From a virus (taxonomy: Duplodnaviria > Heunggongvirae > Uroviricota > Caudoviricetes): a DNA stretch of 64,000 nucleotides. A model generated the notes under the pieces. It did no database searches, was not told the DNA's origin, and saw nothing but the letters and a program-made list of their open reading frames with translations. Below, piece after piece: positions 25,515 to 40,317 of this stretch (positions are counted from its first letter, which is position 1; each line of letters opens with the position of its first letter). The translations under genes were made by a program, and so were the position numbers. The stretch is taken from positions 93,307-157,306 of IMG/VR virus record IMGVR_UViG_3300025723_001543; one strand, written 5' to 3'.

Positions 25515-25522
25515 TATAAATA
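25515..25522 (+). promoter_or_regulatory. T4-type late promoter TATAAATA upstream of collagen-like fibre gene
   Basis: Exact octamer about 30 nt upstream of ATG 25552. Confidence 0.55.
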
Positions 25523-25551: not shown

Positions 25552-26592
25552 ATGACAACCAAAATTTTCGTATCCCAAATAGATACAACACAGCCAGATG
25601 GATCAACAGCTTCTTCCAATTCAGTAATTCTTCTTACAGATACTGGTCCTATATGGAAACCACTTTCTGCTTTAAATTCTGTTGGTTATACTGGTTCGCA
25701 AGGAATTAATGGTTATTTTGGATCAGTTGGCTATCGAGGTTCGACTGGCGAAGTTGGTGTGCCGGGAACATCTGGTTACAAAGGTTCTGTCGGATATACT
25801 GGTTCGGCTGGAGTTGGGTATCAAGGTTCTGTAGGATACACTAGTTCTATTGGTTATACAAGTTCTGTAGGATATACTGGTTCACAAGGAACTACAGGGT
25901 ATTTTGGTTCATTAGGTTATACTGGTTATTTTGGTTCAGTTGGTTATCAGGGTTCTTTAGGAGTCGGTTATCAAGGTTCTGTTGGTTATCAAGGGTCAGC
26001 TGGTATAACAGGAATACTTGCACCATTTCCTTTTATCAATCTTTCTGATGTTGCAGACACAAATGGCAATCCATATACTGGCTATAATGATTTTGGTGGT
26101 TCATATGTCAGAGTAAAACCATCAAGAGACGGATTAGTTCTTGATCCAACAGTTGTATTGACTCCCAACATTACTGTAAATGTAGATTTTCATGGTAATC
26201 AACTTCAACATCCTGTGTTCAGCGGTTATTCAGAAAATGTAATAGATGATGGTCAACCGGGCGCTTCTCTATCTGCAAATCCATTGAATGGTAATGTAAT
26301 TAAAGCTACTCTCAATTCACCTATTACAACTATTACAATGACAAATGCTGGATTAATTTCTGGAAGATTATTTTCAGTAACATTTTTCTTGAAACAAGAT
26401 TCTACTGGTGGAAGAGTACTTGATTGGACAAATAATATCATCTATTGGTCAACAGGTGATGGTATTAATCAAAATACTGGTCCAATCCTTTCAACACAAC
26501 CATTTTATACTGATATTATAACTGTATATACATATGATGCTGGTGGTTCTTGGTATGGAATCATGGGTGCTAGAGGTTTCCCAACACCATAA
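25552..26592 (+). CDS. collagen-like (Gly-X-Y) tail fibre protein
   Basis: About 40 uninterrupted GXY triplets (GYTGSQGINGYFGSVGYRGSTGEVGVPGTSGYKGSVGYTGSAG...) followed by a 190-aa C-terminal globular region. Confidence 0.6.
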   Translation: MTTKIFVSQIDTTQPDGSTASSNSVILLTDTGPIWKPLSALNSVGYTGSQGINGYFGSVGYRGSTGEVGVPGTSGYKGSVGYTGSAGVGYQGSVGYTSSIGYTSSVGYTGSQGTTGYFGSLGYTGYFGSVGYQGSLGVGYQGSVGYQGSAGITGILAPFPFINLSDVADTNGNPYTGYNDFGGSYVRVKPSRDGLVLDPTVVLTPNITVNVDFHGNQLQHPVFSGYSENVIDDGQPGASLSANPLNGNVIKATLNSPITTITMTNAGLISGRLFSVTFFLKQDSTGGRVLDWTNNIIYWSTGDGINQNTGPILSTQPFYTDIITVYTYDAGGSWYGIMGARGFPTP

Positions 26593-26607: not shown

Positions 26608-28350
26608 ATGCCCGTATCTGCAATATCATTATTGAATAACATTGGATTAGCATCTCCAAAAATTCAAAAAATAATACCCAATTATTCTATTTTATTCTGG
26701 CATCATACAGAAAAATGGAATGATGTAAATTCATCCATCTCATATGGCAATGATCCTAGTAATTATAATGATCCGCTAAGAATTTTTAGACAATATGATA
26801 TTGGTCAGTCAAGTATACCAGATGTGGCTGGGTTTTATTCAAATTCGAAATCTACATTATCTTTTAATTATCTCGTAAGATGTGTATCGAGCAACACTGC
26901 ATGGCCGTCTATTTGTGATATAAAATATGATGCAAATACAAATATGAAAACTACTCAAGCAACTTTATTAGATGTTGGTGGGGCTCATAATTATACATTA
27001 GTTGGTAGAACTTCACCTCCTTTAAAAAATAGTGTTGGCACTCCTTTAATTCCTAATATACCAGTTTCTTATTATAATATTGCACATGCAGGCCATCTTC
27101 ATCAAGTAGAAGGGTTATATAATTTTATAACTTCAGTAAACCCAGGAGCTACTGATTCTATCCTTTTAAATGATCAAGCTGGAAGTCATGTACCAAAATC
27201 TTTTTCAAGTTTTTTTGTTGATCCTATAATAAAAGATCCAAGTTTATTAAATATTCCAGTTACAGCTATTCCAAAAGATATAATAGTTATGTATTATGGT
27301 AATTCTACTCTTTCTCTTGATCATTATGATCCATATGATTTAAGCATGAGCGGAGATAATAATAACATAGACTACTCTGCAAATAGTTATGCTCTTCCTT
27401 TAACATTTGTGCAAACTTCTACATATCTAGAAGCTGGTAAAGTAGGAGCTAAAAATTTAATAATTGCAGCAACAGATTCAAATAGTCTTCTTACTGAACC
27501 AAGAATTCTTGCTGGTTTACAGAGCCAAGTTAATGTTGTTGGTATCAATACCCCAAATACTATAACATTTGTAGCTTCTTCTAATACAGCTGGATGGCAT
27601 GATCATGCTCCTCTTGCAAAACAATCTAGTAAATTAATATCAAGTAATCCTGCAGTAACATATAATGTTATAACTAAACCAAACGGTGGAATTGTATATC
27701 CAAATAATGTTGGAGAAAAATATCCTGATGGACCCGATCCTATAAATCACAAACATAATGTTACATACACATCAGAATTAAAATTAAAATCAGTTAAGTT
27801 AAAAGCATTTTTATCAAAAACTAGTGATGCTCCAATTACAAAAGGATTGATAATTGGATACAGTATTGGCAAATATTCAAAATATTCTGGTATTAGTACA
27901 GATGGAAGTAATAGTTTACCACCGGGTTGGTATTTTTGTGATGGCCAAAATGGTACACCAGATTTAAGAGGAAAATATCCTTTCTTAGATTTTACTCAAG
28001 GAACTGATGATGGTAGCACAATTAATCCTACCAAATCATCAATTTTAATAAAACAAATAAATGTAGAAACTATAAATTGGCAACATGGGCATGTCAGTGG
28101 TACTTCTACATTACCAGGATCAGCCGGAAGTATGGATGTAGGAAGTCATGCATCAAATTATGATCCTATATCAAATCCAAATAATACAACTAGACATAAT
28201 CATCCAGTTTCTGGTCAAGTTACATTTTCACAAGCAAATCCAAGTGGTCTTGGTTCAACTATACAACCAAACGCAATAGTTGGAACTTCTTTTGATTATG
28301 AACCACCAACTGTAGAAATAGCATTCATAATGTATAATGATACAATATAA
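26608..28350 (+). CDS. tail fibre / receptor-binding protein with phage tail-collar domain
   Basis: C-terminal GWYFCDGQNGTPDLRGKYPF matches the tail-collar motif (GWxxCDG...PDLRG+F). Confidence 0.55.
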   Translation: MPVSAISLLNNIGLASPKIQKIIPNYSILFWHHTEKWNDVNSSISYGNDPSNYNDPLRIFRQYDIGQSSIPDVAGFYSNSKSTLSFNYLVRCVSSNTAWPSICDIKYDANTNMKTTQATLLDVGGAHNYTLVGRTSPPLKNSVGTPLIPNIPVSYYNIAHAGHLHQVEGLYNFITSVNPGATDSILLNDQAGSHVPKSFSSFFVDPIIKDPSLLNIPVTAIPKDIIVMYYGNSTLSLDHYDPYDLSMSGDNNNIDYSANSYALPLTFVQTSTYLEAGKVGAKNLIIAATDSNSLLTEPRILAGLQSQVNVVGINTPNTITFVASSNTAGWHDHAPLAKQSSKLISSNPAVTYNVITKPNGGIVYPNNVGEKYPDGPDPINHKHNVTYTSELKLKSVKLKAFLSKTSDAPITKGLIIGYSIGKYSKYSGISTDGSNSLPPGWYFCDGQNGTPDLRGKYPFLDFTQGTDDGSTINPTKSSILIKQINVETINWQHGHVSGTSTLPGSAGSMDVGSHASNYDPISNPNNTTRHNHPVSGQVTFSQANPSGLGSTIQPNAIVGTSFDYEPPTVEIAFIMYNDTI

Positions 28351-28362
28351 TAGGAGTATAAC

Positions 28363-28986
28363 ATGATTACAGTAGATCAAATTAAAGAAATTTGTCCAAA
28401 TGCAAAACAAGATATTGCTGAAGCAATTGCAAATAACTATGACCTTCTTTCTGAATATTATGATATCAATAGTCCATTGAGACTAGCACATTTTCTTGCT
28501 CAATGTGCTCATGAATCTGGTGGGTTTAGATTAATTCAAGAAAATTTAAACTATTCTGCAGAAGGTTTAGATAAAATTTTTCCAAAGTATTTTAAAAATG
28601 CTGGTCGTGATGCAACAGAATATGCTAGAAAACCAGAAAAAATTGCAAATGTTGTTTATGCAAATCGTATGGGTAATGGGAACGAAGAATCTGGTGATGG
28701 ATATCATTTTTGTGGAAGAGGTTTAATCCAATTGACTGGTAAGAATAATTATAAATCACTTGCTGAAACTCTCGAAATGACTATTGATGAAGCAGTAGAA
28801 TATCTTCAGACAGCTGGTGGAGCATTAGAATCTGCAGCATGGTTCTGGGCAAATAATGGGTTGAATGAAATTGCAGATACAGATGATATTCTTCGTATTA
28901 CTAAGAAAGTAAATGGTGGAACTATTGGTCTTGATGATCGTACACACAATGCAAATAAATTTAAAGAAGCTCTTGGTATTGATTAA
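28363..28986 (+). CDS. glycoside hydrolase family 19 (chitinase-like) endolysin
   Basis: LAQCAHESGGF...E...GRGLIQLTGKNNY are GH19 lysozyme catalytic-region signatures. Confidence 0.8.
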   Translation: MITVDQIKEICPNAKQDIAEAIANNYDLLSEYYDINSPLRLAHFLAQCAHESGGFRLIQENLNYSAEGLDKIFPKYFKNAGRDATEYARKPEKIANVVYANRMGNGNEESGDGYHFCGRGLIQLTGKNNYKSLAETLEMTIDEAVEYLQTAGGALESAAWFWANNGLNEIADTDDILRITKKVNGGTIGLDDRTHNANKFKEALGID

Positions 28987-28991
28987 ATAAA

Positions 28992-29354
28992 ATGGGTCAA
29001 TATCCTGTAGCAAGAATAGGTGATACAAGTGACCATGGCGGTGTCATTATATCATCGGGAACAAAGTACAGAGACAGTACTGATGGTAAATTGGTTTCTA
29101 GAGTTGGAGATTATCATAGTTGTCCAATTCCCGGTCATGGTGTCACTGCAATTATTACAGGGTCTCCTAAAGTAAGATCAGAAGGTTCACTTGTTGCAGC
29201 CATAACAAGTGTAACTGGATGTGGAGCAGCAATAAACAGTGGAAGTAAAACTACTACGGTTCCTATGCAAGGTGGTGGAGCAGGAAATGAAAATGCATTT
29301 ATTCTTGATAATAATGAACATGACCAGTTGAATGGTCCATCAGTAATGGGATAA
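28992..29354 (+). CDS. PAAR-repeat spike tip protein (gp5.4-like), free-standing in the fibre module
   Basis: Three PAAR-like repeats: PVARIGDTSDHGGVIISSG / VSRVGDYHSCPIPGHGVTAIITGSPKV / VAAITSVTGCGAAINSGS. Confidence 0.8.
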   Translation: MGQYPVARIGDTSDHGGVIISSGTKYRDSTDGKLVSRVGDYHSCPIPGHGVTAIITGSPKVRSEGSLVAAITSVTGCGAAINSGSKTTTVPMQGGGAGNENAFILDNNEHDQLNGPSVMG

Positions 29355-29358
29355 AATA

Positions 29359-31530
29359 ATGAAAATTTGGGTAGTTGGTGATTATTTAAAATCACAAGAT
29401 TTGAATGCTAACTTTGCAGAACTATCTAGCAATGTAGGTTTTTTGCAAGCAAACGTAGCAACTATTAATGCTGAAATAGGTGATATATACTCAAAATTAA
29501 ATGGTATTACATCTACTTCAAACGTTTCTGGGTTGGATGCTAGATATTTTACTGGCCAATATGTAACAGGATTTAGTCATAGTTCAAACAGTATTAGTTA
29601 TGAAGCTCCATTAATATATAAACAAATACCCGATTCTAGAATCGGCAACACTGTTATTGAAGCAAATACCTATACAATAGGAATAGGTCCAATTCTTCCT
29701 CTTGATAATACTGTAATTTACACAGCATCATTTTGGAGCAGAAAAGTACAAAATGGTAGTGCAAATTCTGGTACATTATATTTTGTTATATCAAATTACG
29801 AGGCAAACTTACAAGTTATACCAGGAGATGGCGGTTATTATCATTATCCAATAGAAAATTTAGTACAAAATACAATATCAACAGCTGATGGTTGGGAAAA
29901 ATATTCTTTTAATGTTGGTCCAAATTCTGGAACAAAAGATCATTCTACAAATGCAAAATTTATAAGTCTTGGGTTTATTGTAAATTATCCAGTCGATGGA
30001 CCAACTGCATATGGAAATGACGTATTTCAATTTACAGGATTTTCATTAAAACCGGCTGGAAATAATATTATTGGTTATACAGGATCGAGTGGAACTGATC
30101 AAGGCGAACCGGGTTATAAAGGTTCGAAAGGATTTACAGGTTCTCGTGGATTAACTGGATATTTTGGTTCTACTGGATTTAAAGGTTCACAAGGAATTAG
30201 TGGCTATCAAGGTAGTGCTGGAGTACAAGGATCAGTTGGTTATATAGGAAGTGCTGGTGTTCAAGGTTCAGTTGGTTATGAAGGTTCGGCTGGTGTAAGA
30301 GGATCGACTGGATATGTTGGATCATTAGGACCGGGAGTACAAGGATCAGTTGGTTATCTTGGTTCTACAGGGTTTAAAGGGTCTGTTGGATCAGTTGGTT
30401 ATAAAGGTTCAGTCGGTGATCCCGGTGGTCCAGTTGGTTATCAAGGTTCGGCTGGTTATCAGGGGAGTTTGGGATATCAAGGATCGGCTGGTGTCCAAGG
30501 ATCAACTGGATATGTTGGATCATTAGGACCGGGAGTACAAGGATCAGTTGGATTTAAAGGGTCGGCTGGTTATCAAGGTTCTGCAGGATTTCGTGGTTCT
30601 GCTGGATACAGAGGATCGGTTGGGTATCAAAGTTCTGTTGGATATCTTGGTTCTACAGGATATCTTGGTTCAGTAGGGTATCTTGGATCGGTAGGTTATA
30701 CAGGTTCTATTGGTGATCAAGGACCACCGGGTGGAAGCACAGGTTATACAGGCTCAGTTGGATTTGTCGGATCATTAGGATATGATGGCTCACTTGGATA
30801 TACAGGTTCTAGCGGATATACAGGATCAGTAGGGTTTATCGGATCATTAGGATATGATGGCTCACTTGGATATACAGGTTCAAGAGGTGGCGGATATTTT
30901 GGTTCTACCGGATATAGCGGCTCTATTGGATTTCAAGGATCAGCTGGTTATTTTGGTTCATTTGGTTATAAAGGAAGTGTTGGTTATTCTGGATCATATG
31001 GTTATCTTGGCTCAGTAGGATATACAGGTTCTGTTGGTGCAAGAGGCGTTGATGGTTATAAAGGTTCTATAGGTATAATGGGTTCTATAGGATATCAAGG
31101 TTCAGCTGGTACTTCATATCCTCCTGCGATTGCATTTGCTGCAAAATCTGACATAGGTTCTTATGAACAAGATTATTGGATATTTGATATAGTTGTATTA
31201 AATAAAGGTAATGGGTTTGATTATTTAAGTGGTAAATTTACTGCACCAAAAACAGGATATTATTATATACATCTTTCTGGAGATGTAGATTATTATGCTG
31301 ATGGTATGATAAGAATTTATTTTGCAGTTAATGATGTAATTTATACGACTGCAAAATATATCAGTACAAAATATTCTACGCAAAATGGATGGCAAAATTT
31401 TAATATGTCAACTGTCATGTATCTACATGAAGGCGATTATATTATGCCTTACATAGAAATAGCTGGTGGTCAAAATATAGATAGTAACCCAGAAAACACT
31501 TCTTTTGATGGTTTTTTTATAGGAGAATAA
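29359..31530 (+). CDS. collagen-like fibre protein with C-terminal C1q/TNF-like globular domain (candidate whisker/fibritin analog)
   Basis: About 110 GXY triplets (res ~235-565). The C-terminus fits the C1q signature F-x5-N-x4-F-x6-F-x5-G-x-Y-x-(I)-x-(L): FDIVVLNKGNGFDYLSGKFTAPKTGYYYIHL. The gene lies two genes upstream of gp13, where T4 has wac. Confidence 0.75.
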   Translation: MKIWVVGDYLKSQDLNANFAELSSNVGFLQANVATINAEIGDIYSKLNGITSTSNVSGLDARYFTGQYVTGFSHSSNSISYEAPLIYKQIPDSRIGNTVIEANTYTIGIGPILPLDNTVIYTASFWSRKVQNGSANSGTLYFVISNYEANLQVIPGDGGYYHYPIENLVQNTISTADGWEKYSFNVGPNSGTKDHSTNAKFISLGFIVNYPVDGPTAYGNDVFQFTGFSLKPAGNNIIGYTGSSGTDQGEPGYKGSKGFTGSRGLTGYFGSTGFKGSQGISGYQGSAGVQGSVGYIGSAGVQGSVGYEGSAGVRGSTGYVGSLGPGVQGSVGYLGSTGFKGSVGSVGYKGSVGDPGGPVGYQGSAGYQGSLGYQGSAGVQGSTGYVGSLGPGVQGSVGFKGSAGYQGSAGFRGSAGYRGSVGYQSSVGYLGSTGYLGSVGYLGSVGYTGSIGDQGPPGGSTGYTGSVGFVGSLGYDGSLGYTGSSGYTGSVGFIGSLGYDGSLGYTGSRGGGYFGSTGYSGSIGFQGSAGYFGSFGYKGSVGYSGSYGYLGSVGYTGSVGARGVDGYKGSIGIMGSIGYQGSAGTSYPPAIAFAAKSDIGSYEQDYWIFDIVVLNKGNGFDYLSGKFTAPKTGYYYIHLSGDVDYYADGMIRIYFAVNDVIYTTAKYISTKYSTQNGWQNFNMSTVMYLHEGDYIMPYIEIAGGQNIDSNPENTSFDGFFIGE

Positions 31531-31531
31531 A

Positions 31532-31834
31532 ATGCAGTATACAGTAACTTATACTGAAGCGGAAGACATGGCAATGCAAAGTGTTACTGTTTCAGTAGAT
31601 TCTTGGATACAAAATATTTGTCATCAAAGATCAAAACAGGCTATGGATACTATAATCAATAATTCAATAAACAAATTTTTGGATGCTGGTATTCCTATTC
31701 CTTCTACAAGAGAAGAAATAGTTTTAACTGTTTTTGCAAATGGTTGGGAAAAAACTGGTCTTACAAAAAATACTGAATTATTAGCAAACACATATTACAT
31801 GACGCCACCACCAAGAAAAGTAGCAAACACATAA
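31532..31834 (+). CDS. hypothetical protein
   Basis: ORF, 100 aa. Confidence 0.3.
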   Translation: MQYTVTYTEAEDMAMQSVTVSVDSWIQNICHQRSKQAMDTIINNSINKFLDAGIPIPSTREEIVLTVFANGWEKTGLTKNTELLANTYYMTPPPRKVANT

Positions 31835-32649: not shown

Positions 32650-33324
32650 ATGGAAAAATATGGGTTTGTTTATATCTGGTTTGATAAAAAACACAGCAGA
32701 TTTTATATAGGTTCACATTGGGGGACAGAAGATGACGGGTATATTTGTAGTTCAGCTTGGATGCTAAAAGCTTATAAAATAAGACCAGATGATTTTAAAA
32801 GAAAAATTATTAAAAAAATATTTTCAAGTAGAAAAGAACTGATGGAAGAAGAATTTCGTTATTTGAGTATGATAAAAGAATATGAGTTAAAAACTAGATA
32901 TTATAATTTAAATATTAAAGCTACTGGTCATTGGTCAACATACCCAGAAAAAGTAAAAACAATATCTGAAAAAATATCTATTCGTACCAAAGAAGCTATG
33001 GCTCGTCCTGAAATTCGTGAGAATTATCTTATTGGATTGGCAACAAGAGATAACAAATCATCTGATCCAAATGTTTGTGAAAAACGTCGTGTATCTATGA
33101 TTGGAAAAAATACAGGTAAAGATAATTCAAAAGCTAGAAGAATGGCTACAGAAGCCAATACGGGCAGACCTTTATCAGATACACACAAAGAAAAAATTAA
33201 AAGTACTACACATTTTAAAACAATAAATAGTAGTAAAATAAAATGTGTTCATTGTGATTTTGAAGGAAACATGGGCAATATTGCTAGATATCACAACGAT
33301 AAATGTAACAGAAAGATACTTTAA
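32650..33324 (+). CDS. GIY-YIG homing endonuclease (Seg/I-TevI-like) with NUMOD-like repeats and C-terminal zinc finger
   Basis: GFVYIWFDKKHSRFYIGS (GIY...YIG). C-terminal CVHCDFEGNMGNIARYHNDKC. Free-standing between gp13 and gp14. Confidence 0.75.
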   Translation: MEKYGFVYIWFDKKHSRFYIGSHWGTEDDGYICSSAWMLKAYKIRPDDFKRKIIKKIFSSRKELMEEEFRYLSMIKEYELKTRYYNLNIKATGHWSTYPEKVKTISEKISIRTKEAMARPEIRENYLIGLATRDNKSSDPNVCEKRRVSMIGKNTGKDNSKARRMATEANTGRPLSDTHKEKIKSTTHFKTINSSKIKCVHCDFEGNMGNIARYHNDKCNRKIL

Positions 33325-33884
33325 TGTTACCATTTAATTTATTCATACAATTAGATGAAGATCAGCAACAAGCATTAAAATATGCTGCTAGAGCCCATGC
33401 TGGGCAGACAAGATCAGATGGTTCTGATTATATTCGTCATCCTGAAAGAGTTGCTAAGAGTGTTATGCAGTTTAAAAAATCACATAATATTGATGCTCTT
33501 ATGAGTGCTGCGTATCTTCATGATACTATTGAAGATACTAATACTACTAAAGATGATTTAGAAAAATTGTTTGGTAGTCTAGTTGCTTCTCTTGTACAAG
33601 AGTTGACTACTGATAAAGACGATCTTGAAAAAGCTGGTGGTAAGACAGAATATTTATCTCAGAAGATGAAAAAAATGTCTAGCTATGCTTTGGTCATCAA
33701 GTTGGCAGATAGATTGGATAATGTACAAGATATCAAGTCAGCAAAGAATGCTGCATGGCGTGAGAAATATAAAAAAGAAACTCTTAGAATAATGAACTAT
33801 ATAGAGAAGGAAAGAGTTTTATCAAAGACTCATATGAAAATTATTACAGCTATACGCCATAAGCTATCGGAGTTGGATCACTAA
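33324..33884 (+). CDS. small alarmone hydrolase (RelA/SpoT-type HD-domain (p)ppGpp hydrolase, Mesh1-like)
   Basis: HAGQTRSDGSDYIRHPERVA...AAYLHDTIEDTNTTKDDLEKLFGSLVASLVQELT aligns with the SpoT hydrolase core (HEGQ.R.SGEPYI.HP..VA...AALLHDVIEDT....E....FG..VA.LV.GVT). 186 aa, no synthetase domain. Confidence 0.7.
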   Translation: MLPFNLFIQLDEDQQQALKYAARAHAGQTRSDGSDYIRHPERVAKSVMQFKKSHNIDALMSAAYLHDTIEDTNTTKDDLEKLFGSLVASLVQELTTDKDDLEKAGGKTEYLSQKMKKMSSYALVIKLADRLDNVQDIKSAKNAAWREKYKKETLRIMNYIEKERVLSKTHMKIITAIRHKLSELDH

Positions 33885-33885
33885 A

Positions 33886-35778
33886 ATGTTAATGTTTAAA
33901 CAGTTTATCAAAGAAAATGCTATTACAGGTTATAATACCCTTCTAAACGAAGAATTGAACGATGCTCAAAAAAAAGTTGTTGATTCATGGGGTGAAAACA
34001 CAAAGGCTAAGAAAATTTCTAAAGATGCAATTCCAGAAGGACAAGATAGAACATATATCCCTCTAGAACATCCAGATGACAATAAGCCAGTAGAACCTCA
34101 TCCAGATGTTAAAGCGCATCTGGAAAAGCATGGCTATAAGATAACTGATTATAAAGGTAATAAAGCAATTGAGCCTAAGTATAACAGAGAAATTCGTATT
34201 GGTAAAGCATTAGCTGCAACAGGTGCTTCAAAAGAATTAGTTAGCACATTTAACAACGATCCTAAAAGGGCTGCTTCCAATTCTGGTAAACTAGGCGTAG
34301 TTATTTCTCGTCACCCACATGATGTTGCTGGAATGTCTACTGACAGAGGTTGGCGTTCATGTATGAGTATGAGTACAACAGGAGCTAAAAAAGGTATTGG
34401 TGCTGGTAGTAATAGTCATTATCTAAAGCATGATGTTCAACAAGGAACACACGTTGCTTATCTTGTACACGAACATGACAAAGAAGCTAAACAACCTCTT
34501 GCAAGAATAGCATTGAAACCATTTCAATCGGAAGATAAAAAAGATACCATTCTCAGACCAGAAGAATCACAATATGGAACTTCTGATCATGCATTTGGAC
34601 ATACAGTAAAAAAATGGGCTGAAACAAATTTTCCTGTTAAAGATGATAAAATATACAGAAAAAATAAAAAATTATATAATGATGATCAAAAAGATGTGAT
34701 TGCCAGTCCTAATGCTTCATTAAAAAGTAAAGACCCTAATACCAGAGCCGCAGCTTTTGATAATAGTAATGTGTCACATGAACATATTACAAAAGGATTA
34801 AATGATGAACAAGCTCAAGTACAACTTGCTGCTATTCAACATCCAAATGCAACGGCAGAGCATATCACAAAAGCTTTAGGAATTGATCATATTGGAATTA
34901 GAGCAGCTGCGATTCAACATCCTAATGCAACAGCAGAACATATTACACATGTATTGCATAATGATGGTGATGATTATGTAAGAAAAGCTGCATTAAAAAA
35001 TAAAAATGCAACAGCAGAACATCTTACCCATGTATTAAATAATAAATGGGGTGAAGATAGAAATGTAAGAATTGCTGCATTACAACATCCAAAATTACCA
35101 GCAAAAGAAATTACTAAAGTTTTAAATGGTACTAGTGGTCCTGAAAAAGCATTTGCAGTATCTAATCCTAATGCAACACCAGATCATATTAATAAAGCTT
35201 TGGATGCTCACAATCATTCTGATATCAGACAAGCTGCTATTCAAAATCCTCATGTTAAATTATCATCAGAACATATAACAAAAGCATTAAATGATGTAGA
35301 CACAAGAATAAGAGGAATTGCTGTAAGAAGACCAGAAGCAACAACAGAGCATATTACAAAAGCATTAAATGATGATAAATCATTTGTCAGATCACATGCT
35401 ATTCAAAATCCTAAAGCAACTGCAGAACATATTTCTAAAGTATTAAATGATCCAAATGAAGAAGATGGTATAAAAAGATCAGCGGTAGCTCATCCAAATG
35501 CAACATCTGCACATATTTCTAAAGCATTAAATGATCCAGATGAGGCTGTAAGAAGAACAGCAATATCTAATCCAAATGCAAATGCAGAACATATTTCTAA
35601 AGCATTAAATGATCCAGATGACGTTGTAAGAAGAAAAGCAGTAAATCATCCCAATGCAACTGAGGAACATGCTTTAAAAGCATCAACAGATAAATCTTCA
35701 ATGTTCGTTCGTAATGATGCAGAACAACGTCTTGCACAGTTTAGAGTAGCAAATAAAAGAAAAAGTAAAGAGCTATAA
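33886..35778 (+). CDS. protein with unknown N-terminal domain (~300 aa) plus ~12 tandem 27-aa HEAT/PBS-lyase/LRV-like alpha repeats
   Basis: Repeats of consensus NPNATAEHI(T/S)KALNDPD..VRR.AI (e.g. HPNATSAHISKALNDPDEAVRRTAIS; NPNANAEHISKALNDPDDVVRRKAVN). Translationally coupled to the SAH gene. Confidence 0.6.
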   Translation: MLMFKQFIKENAITGYNTLLNEELNDAQKKVVDSWGENTKAKKISKDAIPEGQDRTYIPLEHPDDNKPVEPHPDVKAHLEKHGYKITDYKGNKAIEPKYNREIRIGKALAATGASKELVSTFNNDPKRAASNSGKLGVVISRHPHDVAGMSTDRGWRSCMSMSTTGAKKGIGAGSNSHYLKHDVQQGTHVAYLVHEHDKEAKQPLARIALKPFQSEDKKDTILRPEESQYGTSDHAFGHTVKKWAETNFPVKDDKIYRKNKKLYNDDQKDVIASPNASLKSKDPNTRAAAFDNSNVSHEHITKGLNDEQAQVQLAAIQHPNATAEHITKALGIDHIGIRAAAIQHPNATAEHITHVLHNDGDDYVRKAALKNKNATAEHLTHVLNNKWGEDRNVRIAALQHPKLPAKEITKVLNGTSGPEKAFAVSNPNATPDHINKALDAHNHSDIRQAAIQNPHVKLSSEHITKALNDVDTRIRGIAVRRPEATTEHITKALNDDKSFVRSHAIQNPKATAEHISKVLNDPNEEDGIKRSAVAHPNATSAHISKALNDPDEAVRRTAISNPNANAEHISKALNDPDDVVRRKAVNHPNATEEHALKASTDKSSMFVRNDAEQRLAQFRVANKRKSKEL

Positions 35779-37349: not shown

Positions 37350-37731
37350 TAAAGATGTAATTTCAAATTCATTAGGAATACCACCCATTCCTTCTCCACC
37401 AAATCCTGTATTCTTGCCGTCAAAAGAAAAGAATGACTATGAATATGCTCGTCAGAACATGTATGATATCATAGAAAAAGGTCAATCTGCATTAGAAGAT
37501 ATTGTAGATATTGCTAGACAATCAGAATCTCCTAGAGCATATGAAGTAGTCACCAATTTAATTAAAACTTTGGCTGAAACAAATAAAGACCTTATGGAAT
37601 TAGCAAAAAAGAACAAAGAAATTAATAAAGCTGATAGTAGCAATGAAGGTAATAAAACAGTCAACAACAATTTATTTGTTGGTTCTTCTTCTGAGTTATT
37701 GAAGATGATTAGGTCTGATTATAATGAATAG
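37333..37731 (+). CDS. 16: terminase small subunit gp16
   Basis: DYEYARQNMYDIIEKGQSALEDIVDIARQSESPRAYEVVTNLIKTLAETNKDLMEL aligns with T4 gp16 ([56 protein letters not shown]). Confidence 0.8.
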   Translation: MKHMVNKDVISNSLGIPPIPSPPNPVFLPSKEKNDYEYARQNMYDIIEKGQSALEDIVDIARQSESPRAYEVVTNLIKTLAETNKDLMELAKKNKEINKADSSNEGNKTVNNNLFVGSSSELLKMIRSDYNE

Positions 37732-38608
37732 TACAAATGAAGTATATCTTGGTAATATAAACTTAAAGCGTAAAGGTGTCCAACTAGAATTTTCAAAAGA
37801 ACAAATTTTAGAATATATAAAGTGCGCCAATGATGTAAATTATTTTTGTGAGAATTATGTTAAGATCGTGAGTATTGATAAAGGACTCGTTTCTTTTAGT
37901 CCTTATCAATATCAAAAAAGAATGTTTAAAGTATTTGATGACAACCGTTTTACAATATGTAAAATGCCTCGTCAGGTGGGGAAAACAACAGGTGTTGTTG
38001 GGTATATGCTTCATAAAATTCTTTTCAATGAAAATTATAATATTGCAGTTTTGGCTAATAAACAAATTCAATCAAAAGAAATTCTTTCTCGAATTCAACT
38101 TGCATATGAATGGTTGCCCAAATGGATGCAGCAAGGCATTATTCAATGGAATAGAGGAAATATCGAATTGGAAAATGGTTCTAAAATACTTGCAGCTGCC
38201 ACTTCATCATCTGCTATTCGTGGTCAATCTTATAATCTAATTTATCTTGATGAGTTTGCATTCGTTCCCAGAAATATTCAAGACACATTTTTTGCTTCAG
38301 TATTCCCAACAATTTCTTCTGGTAACACTTCTAAATTATTAATAACTTCCACACCAAATGGTATGAATTTATTTTATAAAATTTGGATGGACTCTGTTAA
38401 TAGTGAAAATTCTTATGCCCGTGTTGATGTTCATTGGTCAGATGTTCCCGGCAGAGACGAAGCATGGAAAGTAGAAACTATTCGAAATACTTCTGTTGAT
38501 CAATTTCGTCAAGAGTTTGAATGTTTAGACGGTGATACAGAAATTAATATTTTAATAGATAACATTTCCAAAAAAGTTGCAATCAAAGAAATTATAAATA
38601 TAATATGA
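37724..38608 (+). CDS. 17: terminase large subunit gp17, N-terminal (ATPase) fragment fused to a 28-aa N-intein
   Basis: Walker A RQVGKTT (T4 SRQLGKTT). Extein ends ...SVDQFRQEFE (T4 ...LAQFRQEHTAAFE), then CLDGDTEINILIDNISKKVAIKEIINII-stop, i.e. intein block A (C-L-x-x-D-T-x-I). Confidence 0.85.
   Translation: MNSTNEVYLGNINLKRKGVQLEFSKEQILEYIKCANDVNYFCENYVKIVSIDKGLVSFSPYQYQKRMFKVFDDNRFTICKMPRQVGKTTGVVGYMLHKILFNENYNIAVLANKQIQSKEILSRIQLAYEWLPKWMQQGIIQWNRGNIELENGSKILAAATSSSAIRGQSYNLIYLDEFAFVPRNIQDTFFASVFPTISSGNTSKLLITSTPNGMNLFYKIWMDSVNSENSYARVDVHWSDVPGRDEAWKVETIRNTSVDQFRQEFECLDGDTEINILIDNISKKVAIKEIINII
38522..38605 (+). other. N-terminal half of atypically split intein (Int-N, 28 codons starting with Cys)
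   Basis: TGT at 38522 lies in frame with the terminase ATPase fragment. CLDGDTEI motif; stop codon 38606-38608. Confidence 0.75.
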
Positions 38609-38624
38609 ATGCAATTTTATAGGA

Positions 38625-39194
38625 TTGAATTATATGCATTATAGAAAAATTTGGGAAAATACACACGGAAAAATACCAACTGATGAAAATGGGTTTTCTT
38701 ATGAAATACATCATATAGATGGTAATCATAAAAATAATAACATAGAAAATTTACAATTAGTTACAATAAGAGAACATTTCGATATTCATTTACAGCAAGA
38801 AGATTGGTTTGCAGCTGCATTAATTGCTAAAAGAATTGGATTTGGTCCAGATTATTCTTCAAATTTACAAAAAGGAAAGAAAAGACCAAATATTGGTGGA
38901 GTTTCAAAAGGAACAGTTCCGTGGAATAAAGGGAAAAAATATTCTTTTTCTGAAGAAGTTAGAAACAACAGAAAAGGTAAAAGATTTGGAAAAGTTAAAA
39001 TTACTGATCATGAATGTTGTTTAATTTTGAAAAAATATAATAATAAAATTCCTTTAAATGGTGTAGGTGATATATCAAAAAATGGAAGAAAAATTACTTA
39101 TGAAAGAGTTTTTTCTAAAGAATTTCATAAAGAATATAACGTAACTGAATCACAATTATATAATATAATTACAGGAAAACGAAATGTTCTTTAA
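38625..39194 (+). CDS. free-standing HNH homing endonuclease between the terminase halves (likely ATG start at 38634; track start 38625 is TTG)
   Basis: EIHHIDGNHKNNNIENLQLVTIREHFDIH is an HNH motif. Its frame differs from both terminase fragments, and its 3' end overlaps the C-intein ORF start by 11 nt. Confidence 0.8.
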   Translation: MNYMHYRKIWENTHGKIPTDENGFSYEIHHIDGNHKNNNIENLQLVTIREHFDIHLQQEDWFAAALIAKRIGFGPDYSSNLQKGKKRPNIGGVSKGTVPWNKGKKYSFSEEVRNNRKGKRFGKVKITDHECCLILKKYNNKIPLNGVGDISKNGRKITYERVFSKEFHKEYNVTESQLYNIITGKRNVL

Positions 39195-39507
39195 AAATAA
39201 TAATACATTAATAGAAACATCTGAAGGGTATTTACCTTTTAAAGGTGTACAAAAAATTAAAAAAAATGGTCAAATTGAAATTCATTTAGAAAACGGCAGT
39301 CAATTAAAATGTTCGCTTACCCACCGAATCATGACTGTAGATGGTTGGAAGAAATCTATTGATCTTAAGAACGACGATATTATCATATGTAAAAACGAAA
39401 AATCTAAGATATTTTTTCTAGATTACAAAGAGGGAGAATTTGAATATTTTGATATTGTTGGAGTAGAAAATGAACAGTTTTATGCAAATGATATTTTATC
39501 ACATAAT
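39184..39507 (+). other. C-terminal half of atypically split intein (Int-C, 108 codons; ends ...ILSHN, +1 Cys at 39508)
   Basis: Own ATG with AGGA Shine-Dalgarno 7 nt upstream. Terminal HN | C splice junction. Confidence 0.75.
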
Positions 39508-40317
39508 TGCGAATTCTTAGGTTCTACTAACACTCTTATCCATCCTTCAGTTCTTTCTAGATTAGCATACATGAGACCAATAGACAATCCTCATGAAGTA
39601 AAAATATATAAACATCCAATCAAAGATCATATTTATTCCATAACAGTAGATGTTAGCGAAGGTTTAGGGATGGATTCATCTGCACTCGTAGTAATCGATT
39701 GTTCTACTGTTCCATATGAAGTCGTTGCTACATTTAAAGATTCAAATATATCACAATTAATGTTACCAACATTACTTTCTAATATAGGAAAATATTATAA
39801 CGAAGCAGCTATATTGGTTGAAATAAATATAGGATCACAAGTAGTAAATATTCTACATCAAGATTTAGAATATGAAAATATTGTTATGACAAAAATGAGT
39901 GGTAAAAAAGGCACAGCAATAGGTATATCAGGTAATCAAAATAGATTAGGTATAAAAACAACTCAAGTTACTAAAAGAATAGGATGCGCTAACTTAAAAA
40001 CTCTTATCGAATCTGATAAAATAATTTTAAATGATTATGATATTATAAATGAACTGTCCACATATGCTGTTGATAGAAATACTTACAATGCAGAAGAAGG
40101 ACATCATGACGATTTGGTAATGTGCATGGTTCTTTTTGCTTGGATGGCAAGTCAAAATTATTTTAAAGATGTTTCAAATACAGATATCCGTAGACGAATT
40201 GAAGAAGAAGTTGAAGAAGATTTCACACCTTTTGGTATTATACATGATGGCAGGGAAGAAGAATTTAACGATAAAGTAATGAGTGAAAACGAGTTTGAAA
40301 AATTTTTACTAAATTGA
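39184..40317 (+). CDS. 17: 108-aa C-intein fused to terminase large subunit C-terminal (nuclease) fragment
   Basis: ORF opens MFFKNNN...EYFDIVGVENEQFYANDILSHN followed by CEFLGSTNTLIHP. Intein blocks F/G end in HN with +1 Cys. The extein then continues in register with T4 gp17 (FEGTSGTLI...), with HDDLVMCMVLFAWM matching T4 HDDLVMSLVIFGWL. Confidence 0.85.
   Translation: MFFKNNNTLIETSEGYLPFKGVQKIKKNGQIEIHLENGSQLKCSLTHRIMTVDGWKKSIDLKNDDIIICKNEKSKIFFLDYKEGEFEYFDIVGVENEQFYANDILSHNCEFLGSTNTLIHPSVLSRLAYMRPIDNPHEVKIYKHPIKDHIYSITVDVSEGLGMDSSALVVIDCSTVPYEVVATFKDSNISQLMLPTLLSNIGKYYNEAAILVEINIGSQVVNILHQDLEYENIVMTKMSGKKGTAIGISGNQNRLGIKTTQVTKRIGCANLKTLIESDKIILNDYDIINELSTYAVDRNTYNAEEGHHDDLVMCMVLFAWMASQNYFKDVSNTDIRRRIEEEVEEDFTPFGIIHDGREEEFNDKVMSENEFEKFLLN

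What the first reader, a model, noticed from the sequence alone, without database searches (positions are those of the whole stretch)
29359..31530. Collagen triple-helix fibre with a C1q/TNF-like head at the position of T4 fibritin (wac)
The 723-aa protein has ~110 uninterrupted Gly-X-Y triplets (hexad pattern G-S-x-G-Y-x). Its C-terminal globular domain fits the C1q signature almost perfectly (FDIVVLNKGNGFDYLSGKFTAPKTGYYYIHL). C1q heads are obligate trimers like the fibritin foldon. The gene lies two genes upstream of neck protein gp13, where T4 encodes wac. This suggests a whisker or side fibre built on a collagen stalk instead of a coiled coil. A second collagen-like fibre (25552-26592) uses the same hexad repeat, creating long near-identical DNA repeats that could drive recombination and length variation between the two fibre genes.
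Basis: partly seen in the sequence, partly recalled or inferred. Interest (0 to 1): 0.7.

Follow-up and report, generated by a model that had tools for sequence, protein, structure and literature searches.

The report
Phage collagen fibre with C1q tip
An uncultured T4-like phage encodes a roughly 100-nm collagen-type fibre ending in a true C1q-family knob, most likely a fast-evolving host-binding fibre; each part is already known in phages, but together they copy the layout of animal C1q-family proteins.

Summary
The 723-aa ORF (29359-31530, +) is real and under purifying selection. It has four parts:
- a conserved N-terminal motif;
- an uncharacterised N-domain;
- a 348-residue Gly-X-Y stalk of 112 triplets, with 7 interruptions, so not "uninterrupted";

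It lies in one apparent late operon: fibre B, gp12-like p580, lysozyme-like, PAAR, this gene, p100, gp13. That matches T4's wac position, but there is no homology to fibritin.

In about 160 related loci, the slot between PAAR and gp13 is a variable fibre cassette. Head type and stalk length change (18 to 222 triplets), and heads are 30-55% identical where gp13 is about 80%. This fits a receptor-binding fibre better than a fibritin-like assembly whisker. Where it attaches to the virion is unresolved.

New side finding: the downstream 100-aa gene belongs to a family that follows a C1q-headed protein in 71 of 77 unrelated phage loci.

The claim of long near-identical DNA repeats between the two collagen genes is wrong (longest exact match 17 nt). 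Phage collagen fibres and phage C1q-like receptor-binding proteins are both published, so this is a new variant of a known kind.

The parts
25515..25522 (+). T4-type late-promoter-like motif TATAAATA, 37 nt upstream of fibre B. No further copy on this strand until 32610, so fibre B through gp13 is probably one late transcription unit (inferred).
   Evidence: The same motif lies 30-55 nt upstream of gp14, gp18, gp20, gp22 and gp23.
25552..26592 (+). Fibre B: a 346-aa collagen-like protein (34 triplets, same Ser/Tyr hexad) with a conserved C-terminal domain that matches phage tail-fibre C-terminal families.
   Evidence: It is conserved in 36 related loci.
26608..28350 (+). p580: a fibre-like protein with a gp12-type 'collar' motif (LPPGWYFCDG...PDLRG).
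   Evidence: Pfam Collar is weak (E 0.19); phrog_8469 tail fibre E 1.5e-8. Only the motif aligns to T4 gp12.
28363..28986 (+). Lysozyme-like (GH19-type) protein next to PAAR, possibly virion-associated.
   Evidence: phrog_181 E 4e-74; Pfam Glyco_hydro_19 is weak.
28992..29354 (+). PAAR spike-tip protein. It marks the conserved left border of the variable slot.
   Evidence: Pfam PAAR_motif 51 bits. Conserved in 32 loci.
29359..31530 (+). Gene A: the 723-aa collagen-stalk fibre with a C1q head (whole ORF).
   Evidence: dN/dS is 0.03-0.25 against the 94%-identical strain L167.
29359..29436 (+). Conserved N-terminal motif, aa 1-26 (MKIWVVGDYLKSQDLNANFAELSSNV). It is shared with slot fibres that have other distal ends (L002, L003, L007, L016). 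Candidate virion-attachment element (inferred).
29536..30063 (+). N-domain, about aa 60-235, predicted beta-rich, with no Pfam or PDB match. Present in L001, L018 and L007 but absent from L002, so it is optional.
   Evidence: The AF2 model is unreliable (pLDDT 42).
30073..31116 (+). Collagen-like stalk, aa 239-586. It has 112 Gly-X-Y triplets in 8 runs with 7 interruptions and would be about 100 nm if fully triple-helical. Composition: 17% Ser, 10% Tyr, 2% Pro, 6% charged, no KGE/KGD.
   Evidence: dN/dS 0.03.
30233..30598 (+). Internal duplication within the stalk: 168 nt at 76% identity, 198-nt period, with a 47-nt exact core at 30307/30505.
30742..30885 (+). Tandem 24-aa (72-nt) duplication GYTGSVGF(V/I)GSLGYDGSLGYTGS(S/R). 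The scaffold gap of strain L167 falls here.
31117..31527 (+). C-terminal globular C1q (gC1q/TNF-like jelly-roll) head, aa 587-723. Pfam match covers aa 592-721.
31532..31834 (+). p100: a 100-aa protein whose ATG lies 1 nt after the stop of gene A, with AGGAG inside the 3' end of gene A. It belongs to a family that almost always follows a C1q-headed phage protein.
31858..32598 (+). gp13-type neck protein (head-tail adaptor Ad2). It marks the conserved right border of the variable slot.
   Evidence: phrog_211 E 1.4e-39. 60-81% identical in the 160 related loci retrieved.

Best explanation
Gene A encodes a late-expressed, homotrimeric virion fibre of an uncultured T4-like myovirus that is probably freshwater.

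Proposed mechanism:
1. Three chains are registered by the C-terminal gC1q jelly-roll head. In C1q, adiponectin and collagens VIII/X this head is an obligate trimer and nucleates the collagen helix, which zips from C to N terminus.
2. The 348-residue Gly-X-Y region forms a thin triple-helical stalk of about 100 nm, with 7 interruptions that would act as kinks or hinges.
3. The N-terminal conserved motif, possibly with the N-domain, anchors the fibre to the particle.
4. The C1q head is the distal, rapidly evolving ligand-binding tip that contacts the host surface, probably a glycan or outer-membrane component.
5. The downstream p100 protein is a conserved partner of C1q-headed fibres, most likely an assembly factor.

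What is shown: domain identities, gene context, purifying selection, variability of the slot and the head, and the p100 linkage.

What is inferred: trimerisation, triple-helix formation, virion incorporation, receptor binding, the attachment site and the role of p100. My estimate for the attachment site is baseplate or tail about 0.5, neck about 0.3.
For: Domains:
- Collagen scores 141 bits and C1q 39 bits over the full profile.
- The head aligns end to end with C1QL3 (E about 1e-4) and with C1q chains.

Context:
- The gene is embedded between PAAR and gp13 in a T4-type structural module, with a late-promoter motif only at the head of the operon.

Functional constraint:
- dN/dS is 0.03 for the stalk, 0.10 for the N-domain and 0.25 for the head, against a 94%-identical strain.

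Variability:
- The same slot in relatives holds fibres with the same N-terminal motif but other distal domains and 18-222 triplets.
- Heads of orthologues are 30-55% identical, while gp13 is about 80% and gp19 about 88%.
- Across 41 C1q-headed proteins, the heads are the most divergent part.

Literature:
- C1q-domain proteins are proposed receptor-binding proteins lying in hypervariable islands of marine and cryoconite phages (PMC3909814, PMC7468147).
- eCIS fibres carry C1q tips (PMC12923769).
- The Pam3 tail fibre has a TNF-like tip and needs a chaperone (PMC9608196).
- Collagen folds from C to N terminus (PMC11923368).

p100:
- It lies 4-40 nt downstream of a C1q-headed ORF in 71 of 77 independent IMG/VR loci.
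- 9 of 10 sampled partner proteins pass the Pfam C1q threshold.
- The pair is also present in cultured phages DC33 and S-SRM01.
Against: - There is no direct evidence that the protein is in virions or binds anything.
- The head model has only moderate confidence (pLDDT 60) because the alignment is shallow. No trimer could be modelled.
- The stalk is atypical for a stable collagen: 2% Pro, 6% charged residues, and no KGE/KGD salt-bridge triplets. Triple-helix stability is therefore unproven.
- The N-terminal anchor has no homologue of known location.
- In L018 the motif is preceded by a 92-aa extension, so it is not always N-terminal.
- The gene's position next to gp13 equals that of wac in T4, so a neck fibre remains possible.
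- The distal module of the A-1(L) neck fibre did not bind its host (PMC10966104). A distal binding fold therefore does not prove primary receptor recognition.
- p100 sequence does not co-vary with the head (Spearman 0.20, against 0.53 with the shaft). It is not a tip-specific chaperone.
Confidence: 0.72

Rival explanations
1. Fibritin analogue. The fibre is a neck or collar whisker attached to gp13/gp14. It acts mainly in assembly or retraction of the other tail fibres, or as an environmental sensor, with collagen replacing the coiled coil and the C1q head replacing the foldon as trimerisation nucleus.
For: - The gene order p580 (gp12-like collar motif), gene A, (p100), gp13 mirrors T4's gp12-wac-gp13.
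- It is co-transcribed with gp13 (inferred).
- Both are trimeric fibres with a C-terminal trimerisation domain.
- Neck fibres about 100 nm long with distal binding modules exist in myophage A-1(L) (PMC10966104).
Against: - There is no similarity to T4 wac.
- The slot is replaced wholesale among close relatives whose gp13 is about 80% identical. That is unexpected for a partner of conserved neck proteins and for an assembly chaperone.
- The head is the fastest-evolving part.
- In the cultured phage S-SRM01 the same C1q-plus-p100 module lies in a tail-fibre cluster, and elsewhere it occurs on contigs of about 5-70 kb whose virus type was not determined.
- T4 also places gp9 to gp12, which are baseplate fibre genes, immediately upstream. 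Map position does not separate neck fibres from baseplate fibres.
Confidence: 0.2
2. Capsid or other surface decoration fibre, comparable to collagen-like capsid-binding proteins or Hoc-type adhesins. It would mediate non-specific adherence to particles, mucus or non-host surfaces and would not be needed for infection.
For: - C1q domains are general pattern-recognition modules.
- The N-domain is uncharacterised.
- Nothing fixes the attachment site.
Against: - The gene sits in the baseplate-tip, fibre and neck operon, not with the head genes.
- Relatives' slot genes resemble tail-fibre families.
- The structural neighbours of the head among phage proteins are tail-fibre tips.
Confidence: 0.05
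3. Recently captured animal C1q-family gene (a moron) with no structural role in the phage.
For: - The head is directly sequence-similar to metazoan gC1q domains.
- Horizontal transfer from animals has been proposed for eCIS C1q tips (PMC12923769).
Against: - Orthologues in syntenic phages are already only 30-55% identical.
- Hundreds of phage-type C1q heads exist, and they are far closer to this one than animal C1q is. In one search, E was down to 1e-12 for distant fibre proteins in a 1.8-billion-protein library.
- The collagen is of a phage-specific Ser/Tyr type that is shared with other fibres of the clade.
- The gene has a phage-specific partner, p100.
Confidence: 0.03

Closest known systems
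Metazoan C1q-family proteins with a collagen stalk (C1q A/B/C, C1q-like proteins, adiponectin/CTRPs, collagens VIII and X)
   Same: - Same domain order: a Gly-X-Y stalk followed by a C-terminal gC1q jelly-roll.
- Pfam C1q match over the whole profile.
- Direct alignment to C1QL3 and C1q.
   Different: - The stalk is 112 triplets, Ser/Tyr-rich, with 2% Pro and no hydroxyproline system expected.
- The N-terminus is a phage-specific motif and domain.
- The gene is encoded in a phage late structural operon.
C1q-domain putative receptor-binding proteins of marine, pelagiphage and cryoconite phages (Mizuno et al. 2014, PMC3909814; Bellas et al. 2020, PMC7468147) and C1q-tipped eCIS fibres (PMC12923769)
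   Same: - C-terminal Pfam C1q head on a phage or phage-tail-like fibre protein.
- The head is the hypervariable part.
- It lies next to other fibre genes.
- The p100-linked C1q proteins found here probably belong to this group.
   Different: - Most of the p100-linked C1q proteins found here have no collagen: 0-6 triplets in 250-1,632-aa proteins.
- The protein here sits on a 100-nm collagen stalk in a T4-like myovirus.
- The conserved downstream p100 gene was not found in the passages I read from these papers (text searches for 'C1q' only).
Phage collagen-like tail fibres ('bacteriophage collagen', Smith et al. 1998, cited in PMC4621102; E. coli prophage collagens, PMC3368898; S-CRM01 collagen 'tail fiber' genes)
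   Same: - A Gly-X-Y shaft in a tail-fibre gene cluster.
- The best PHROG hits are tail-fibre families.
- S-CRM01 carries three such genes downstream of its gp12-like gene.
   Different: - The S-CRM01 and other cultured-phage matches cover only the collagen part.
- The tblastn search of 50,697 phage records found only one weak head match: DC33, E 0.01, which has no collagen hit.
PRD1 spike protein P5, and Bacillus BclA (collagen-like region with a TNF/C1q-like trimeric head)
   Same: - Fibre with a C-terminal TNF/C1q-fold trimer as distal knob.
- That both have short collagen-like regions is from my own knowledge.
   Different: - Those heads do not match Pfam C1q by sequence. BclA has its own family, BclA_C.
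- Their stalks are much shorter or heavily glycosylated.
- They are unrelated in genomic context.
T4 fibritin (wac)
   Same: - A trimeric fibre gene immediately upstream of gp13 and downstream of a gp12-like gene.
- A C-terminal trimerisation nucleus.
   Different: - No sequence similarity.
- Collagen stalk in place of an alpha-helical coiled coil.
- C1q head in place of the foldon.
- The locus is hypervariable in relatives.
Pam3 tail fibre gp24 and its chaperone gp25 (PMC9608196)
   Same: - A TNF-like distal domain on a myophage fibre.
- A small dedicated partner protein that is needed for assembly.
   Different: - p100 has no detectable similarity to known fibre chaperones.
- p100 does not co-vary with the tip.
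- The Pam3 shaft is alpha-helical.

Membership tests
C1q domain (Pfam PF00386; gC1q / TNF-like jelly-roll) | Profile score above the curated gathering threshold, over the full domain | tested here: met
   39.0 bits against a cut-off of 23.7; aa 592-721 = profile 1-127/127. phmmer hits to C1QL3, C1q, cerebellin and EMILIN.
C1q domain (Pfam PF00386; gC1q / TNF-like jelly-roll) | Ten-strand (two five-stranded sheets) beta jelly-roll fold | tested here: met
C1q domain (Pfam PF00386; gC1q / TNF-like jelly-roll) | Assembles as a compact trimer | not testable with these tools
   Only single-chain prediction was available. The trimer is inferred from the family and from the adjoining collagen.
Collagen triple-helix repeat (Pfam PF01391) | Long Gly-X-Y periodicity | tested here: met
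   141 bits. 112 triplets in 8 runs, Gly at every third residue apart from 7 short breaks.
Collagen triple-helix repeat (Pfam PF01391) | Forms a stable triple helix | not testable with these tools
   The composition is atypical: 2% Pro, 6% charged, no KGE/KGD. Strong purifying selection on X/Y residues (dN/dS 0.03) argues for a structural constraint.
T4 fibritin (wac) neck whisker | Sequence homology to fibritin (N-terminal neck-binding region, coiled-coil segments, foldon) | tested here: not met
   BLASTP best E is 0.05, over a short helical stretch only.
T4 fibritin (wac) neck whisker | Gene position between the gp12-like gene and gp13 | tested here: met
   One extra small gene (p100), plus the lysozyme-like and PAAR genes, intervene.
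T4 fibritin (wac) neck whisker | Attached to the neck or collar of the virion | not testable with these tools
   Needs cryo-EM or immuno-EM.
Phage receptor-binding fibre | Located in the tail-fibre/baseplate gene cluster and expressed late | tested here: met
   Operon with fibre B, p580 and PAAR; late-promoter motif at 25515. Expression is inferred.
Phage receptor-binding fibre | Distal domain hypervariable or exchanged between close relatives | tested here: met
   Slot survey. Head 30-55% identical against gp13 at about 80%. The head is the most divergent part in 41 module pairs.
Phage receptor-binding fibre | Binds a host surface receptor | not testable with these tools
   Host unknown; needs adsorption or binding assays.
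Tail-fibre assembly chaperone (Tfa / gp38 / Pam3 gp25-like), for p100 | Small gene immediately downstream of the fibre gene and linked to its distal domain type | tested here: met
   71 of 77 p100 homologues follow a C1q-headed ORF at 4-40 nt. In the gp13-anchored set, p100 occurs only in C1q loci.
Tail-fibre assembly chaperone (Tfa / gp38 / Pam3 gp25-like), for p100 | Sequence similarity to known fibre chaperones | tested here: not met
   No Pfam, PHROG or PDB match.
Tail-fibre assembly chaperone (Tfa / gp38 / Pam3 gp25-like), for p100 | Co-variation with the fibre tip | tested here: not met
   Spearman p100 vs head 0.20, against p100 vs shaft 0.53. p100 stays conserved (0.84) where heads have diverged.

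The most novel reading that the evidence does not exclude
'C1q head plus p100' is an obligate two-protein module of aquatic phage adhesins.
- p100 would be a previously unrecognised, class-specific folding or trimerisation factor, or a retained tip partner, for phage gC1q knobs.
- The module has been grafted onto very different shafts.
- In this T4-like clade the shaft is a proline-poor, charge-poor Ser/Tyr collagen of about 100 nm. Its stability would have to come from a mechanism not used by animal or Scl-type bacterial collagens, such as Tyr/Ser ladders or glycosylation.
- The fibre may project from the neck as a collagen 'whisker'.
Probability: 0.3. Interest if true: 0.65.

Novelty: new variant of a known kind. 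Interest (0 to 1): 0.45.

Why it matters
- It shows that the complete collagen-stalk-plus-gC1q design used by animal pattern-recognition and matrix proteins also exists in a virus of bacteria, where it is apparently used as a host-recognition fibre.
- The locus is a clean natural example of modular fibre evolution: a fixed slot between PAAR and gp13, a shared N-terminal motif, variable stalk length and exchangeable tips.
- The Ser/Tyr, proline-poor stalk is a test case for what stabilises collagen helices without hydroxyproline or salt bridges.
- The p100 family gives a concrete, testable candidate for how phage C1q/TNF-like knobs are assembled. That is relevant to engineering receptor-binding proteins and self-trimerising collagen materials.

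Tried and rejected
1. Full-length searches are swamped by collagen, so the domains were searched separately.
2. Word-indexed homology searches returned almost nothing: 1, 1 and 4 hits. The exhaustive HMMER search was needed.
3. IMG/VR scans with the head alignment found nothing, and with the N-domain alignment found only the 26-aa motif. Anchoring on gp13 worked.
4. The N-domain could not be characterised. The AF2 model was unusable (pLDDT 42). Sequence profiles found no PDB or Pfam match. tblastn of the N-terminus against phages gave nothing significant. The attachment site is therefore unresolved.
5. The closest cultured relatives, DLP6 and Cr30, have only hypothetical proteins upstream of gp13.
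6. I predicted that p100 would co-vary with the head, like a Tfa-type chaperone. This was tested and not met. I keep only the class-level linkage.
7. Strain L167 was examined for a stalk-length difference. It is colinear, and its only break is a 100-N scaffold gap in the tandem duplication. That is an assembly ambiguity, not evidence of a length change.
8. Homology to T4 wac and gp12 is rejected.
9. Sigma-70 promoter and terminator scans were no better than shuffled sequence.
10. The idea that inter-gene repeats drive recombination is rejected.
Full report
**Observation**

The ORF at 29359-31530 (+) is real and encodes 723 aa. No ORF of 60 aa or more lies on the opposite strand inside it, apart from one that overlaps its first 37 nt.

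- Pfam gives Collagen at 141 bits.
- Pfam gives C1q (PF00386) at 39.0 bits against a gathering cut-off of 23.7. The match covers aa 592-721 and the whole profile, 1-127/127.
- A direct count finds 112 Gly-X-Y triplets between aa 239 and 586, but in 8 runs separated by 7 interruptions. The breaks are Q, VQ, V, VQ, SSV, T and YF. The longest run is 26 triplets, so 'uninterrupted' is wrong.
- The X position is Ser in 50 triplets and Tyr/Phe in 42, which confirms the G-S-x-G-Y-x hexad.
- The second collagen gene (25552-26592) has 34 triplets of the same type.
- The claim that the two genes share long near-identical DNA repeats fails. The longest exact match is 17 nt, and the best local alignments are 65-77% identical.
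- Genuine repeats exist only inside the gene: a 198-nt-period duplication with a 47-nt exact core, and a 72-nt tandem duplication.

**Genomic setting**

The window is the structural module of a T4-type myovirus. Baseplate genes lie on the minus strand. On the plus strand lie gp13, gp14, gp15, gp17, gp18, gp19, gp20, gp22 and gp23, in T4 order.

No close relative exists among 50,697 GenBank phage records. The portal protein is 60% identical to Stenotrophomonas phage DLP6, 56% to the phiM12 group and about 50% to cyanomyoviruses.

Gene A is tightly packed in the series fibre B, p580, lysozyme-like protein, PAAR, gene A, p100, gp13.

- p580 carries a gp12-type collar motif.
- The T4 late-promoter motif TATAAATA lies 37 nt upstream of fibre B. 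It does not recur on this strand until after gp13, although it precedes many other structural genes. The series therefore looks like one late operon, which is an inference.
- The p100 start codon is 1 nt after the stop of gene A, with AGGAG inside the 3' end of gene A.
- T4's order gp12-wac-gp13 was verified in the annotated record, so the positional analogy to wac is correct.
- There is no sequence similarity to fibritin or, beyond the collar motif, to gp12.

**The head**

Besides the Pfam match, plain phmmer aligns the last 140 residues end to end with solved C1QL3 (E about 1e-4) and hits C1q, cerebellin, EMILIN and caprin-2.

- Solved phage receptor-binding tips also appear: cyanophage A4 tail fibre, A-1(L) short-tail-fibre carbohydrate-binding domain, PRD1 P5, TM4 gp23 RBD and lactococcal phage 1358 RBP.

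The 'C1q/TNF-like head' is therefore supported by both sequence and fold.

**Relatives and the variable slot**

Close homologues are very rare. Among 1.8 billion representative proteins, only two match the head at E below 1e-30.

Anchoring on gp13 retrieved 160 related loci from IMG/VR and JGI metagenomes. In the closest clade (gp13 at least 75% identical), the block fibre B, p580, lysozyme-like, PAAR is conserved and gp13 follows. What lies between PAAR and gp13 varies.

- Six non-redundant loci have the C1q-type fibre: the window, L001, L018 (the same contig as L091), L090, L013 and the fragment L005. A 94%-identical strain, L167, also has it.
- L002 has a 1,057-aa protein with the same 26-aa N-terminal motif, 222 triplets of the same Ser/Tyr collagen, and entirely different distal domains with a glycine-rich end.
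- L007 has the N-domain, 18 triplets and another C-terminus.
- Most other loci have one or two different collagen-containing genes.

Between the window and its relatives, gp13 is about 80% identical, gp19 about 88% and the lysozyme-like protein 80-86%. The N-domain is 32-56% identical and the head 30-55%.

Against strain L167, every part of the gene is under purifying selection. dN/dS is 0.10 for the N-domain. For the stalk it is 0.03, from 52 synonymous against about 5 non-synonymous changes. It is 0.25 for the head, which is the highest value within the gene, although counts are small.

The gene is therefore functional, its stalk sequence is constrained beyond the glycines, and its tip evolves fastest. 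Stalk length varies among orthologues: 112 triplets here, about 143 or more in L001, and 93 in L018.

**The stalk**

At 0.286 nm per residue, 348 residues give about 100 nm. The composition is unusual for a collagen: 17% Ser, 10% Tyr, 3% Phe, 2% Pro and 6% charged residues, with no KGE or KGD triplets. A recent survey reports KGD/KGE salt-bridge triplets as characteristic of viral collagens (PMC11923368). The same Ser/Tyr type is common in other fibres of this phage clade, so it is a clade feature. Whether it forms a stable helix, and how, is untested.

**p100**

In the gp13-anchored set, the 100-aa gene downstream of gene A occurs only in the C1q loci.

- *Independent search.* A search for p100 homologues that was not anchored on gp13 found 101 in IMG/VR. 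In the 78 new loci examined, 71 of the 77 p100 genes that have an upstream ORF lie 4-40 nt after an ORF ending in a C1q-like head. Three of the six exceptions end in the same C-terminal signature.
- *Partner proteins.* Most partners are 250-460 aa and lack collagen.
- *Pfam check.* Nine of ten sampled partners pass Pfam's C1q threshold. These include the cultured Limnohabitans phage DC33 (848 aa, 46 bits) and Synechococcus phage S-SRM01 gp009. In S-SRM01 the pair sits in the tail-fibre cluster, and both genes are annotated only as hypothetical.
- *Known families.* p100 has no Pfam, PHROG or PDB match.
- *Co-variation test.* I predicted that p100 would co-vary with the head, and it does not. 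Across 41 unique pairs, p100 similarity correlates 0.20 with head similarity and 0.53 with the rest of the fibre protein. p100 stays conserved (median 0.84) where the heads have diverged.

p100 is thus a conserved partner of the C1q-head class. A general folding or trimerisation factor, or a structural partner, are the most plausible roles. It is not a tip-specific chaperone.

**Interpretation**

The best-supported reading is a homotrimeric virion fibre. The gC1q head registers and nucleates the collagen helix, which folds from C to N terminus (established for collagens; PMC11923368). The head also serves as the distal, fast-evolving ligand-binding knob.

This matches published proposals that C1q-domain proteins are receptor-binding proteins in hypervariable islands of marine and cryoconite phages (PMC3909814, PMC7468147). 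It also matches solved phage fibre tips with this fold (PMC9608196, PMC10966104).

It is not supported by homology, and it fits poorly with wholesale replacement of the gene among close relatives. A neck attachment nevertheless cannot be excluded, because the N-terminal anchor has no characterised homologue.

**Novelty**

Phage collagen-like fibres and phage C1q-like receptor-binding proteins are each known. Their combination reproduces the animal C1q, collagen VIII/X and adiponectin architecture with a bona fide Pfam C1q domain. In the 50,697 GenBank phage records searched here, no record matched both the collagen stalk and the head. It appears restricted to a small clade of uncultured T4-like phages. 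I rate it a new variant of a known kind, of moderate interest. The p100 linkage is the most useful new lead.

Noticed in passing
window 31532-31834; loci L169-L246, L247, L248: The 100-aa protein downstream of the fibre gene belongs to an unannotated family with invariant W25, N28, C30, H31 and R33. In 71 of 77 independent phage loci it immediately follows a protein that ends in a C1q domain. The pair is also present in the cultured phages Limnohabitans DC33 and Synechococcus S-SRM01.
   Followed up: yes
L001 11180-11460: In the closest syntenic relative, the orthologous fibre gene is broken by a frame shift inside the collagen repeats. It is called as 402 aa plus 391 aa, with about 80 codons of collagen in another frame between them. 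This could be an assembly error, a pseudogene or a genuine split; it is unresolved.
   Followed up: partly
L002 10001-13174 (the same contig as L010): The slot fibre of a related 202-kb phage has the same 26-aa N-terminus and 222 Ser/Tyr collagen triplets. It ends in two Ig-like-looking repeats and a glycine-rich C-terminal domain in place of C1q. L018 carries a similar Ig-like segment N-terminal to the conserved motif.
   Followed up: partly
window 37724-40317: The large terminase (gp17) is split into two ORFs (37724-38608 and 39184-40317) by an inserted HNH endonuclease ORF (38625-39194; Pfam HNH_3). In relative L001 it is a single 537-aa gene.
   Followed up: partly
window 32650-33324: A homing-endonuclease-like ORF (phrog_314) lies between gp13 and the HD-domain gene. 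It is absent from L001. It is the only stretch with DNA similarity to a cultured phage: 76% to a phiM12 homing endonuclease.
   Followed up: partly
window 33886-35778: A 630-aa protein has about a dozen HEAT/LRV-like repeats ('HPNATAEHITKAL') and an unassigned N-terminal 290 aa. It is inserted between the HD gene and gp14 and is absent from L001. Function unknown.
   Followed up: no
window 33324-33884: An HD_4 / HD-domain protein (the domain family of RelA/SpoT-type (p)ppGpp hydrolases) is encoded between the neck genes gp13 and gp14. It is conserved in L001.
   Followed up: no
window 28363-29354: A free-standing GH19-like lysozyme gene lies directly upstream of the PAAR spike-tip gene and is conserved across the clade. 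It may be a virion-associated tail lysozyme that is separate from the gp5-like hub.
   Followed up: no
window 30073-31116 and many related loci: A Ser/Tyr-rich, proline-poor, charge-poor collagen (G-S-x-G-Y-x) is the common stalk chemistry of several different fibre genes in this phage clade. Such genes have up to 222 triplets.
   Followed up: partly
L247 (PQ492659.1): Limnohabitans phage DC33 is a 39-kb circular genome whose annotated genes include one very large ORF (cut at the edge of the region shown), a peptidase lysin and a C1q-headed 848-aa protein. The record classifies it under Inoviridae, which looks like a mis-assignment.
   Followed up: no
one search hits P0007, P0011, P0013, P0016-P0019, P0022, P0035: A large metagenomic family of non-collagen fibre-like proteins has repeated 'MRIDSSGNVGIGT' motifs and ends in a conserved C1q-like head (QPAFHATSS...GRFTAPVTGVYYFY...GFGGYLIG). 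Their genomic context was not examined.
   Followed up: no
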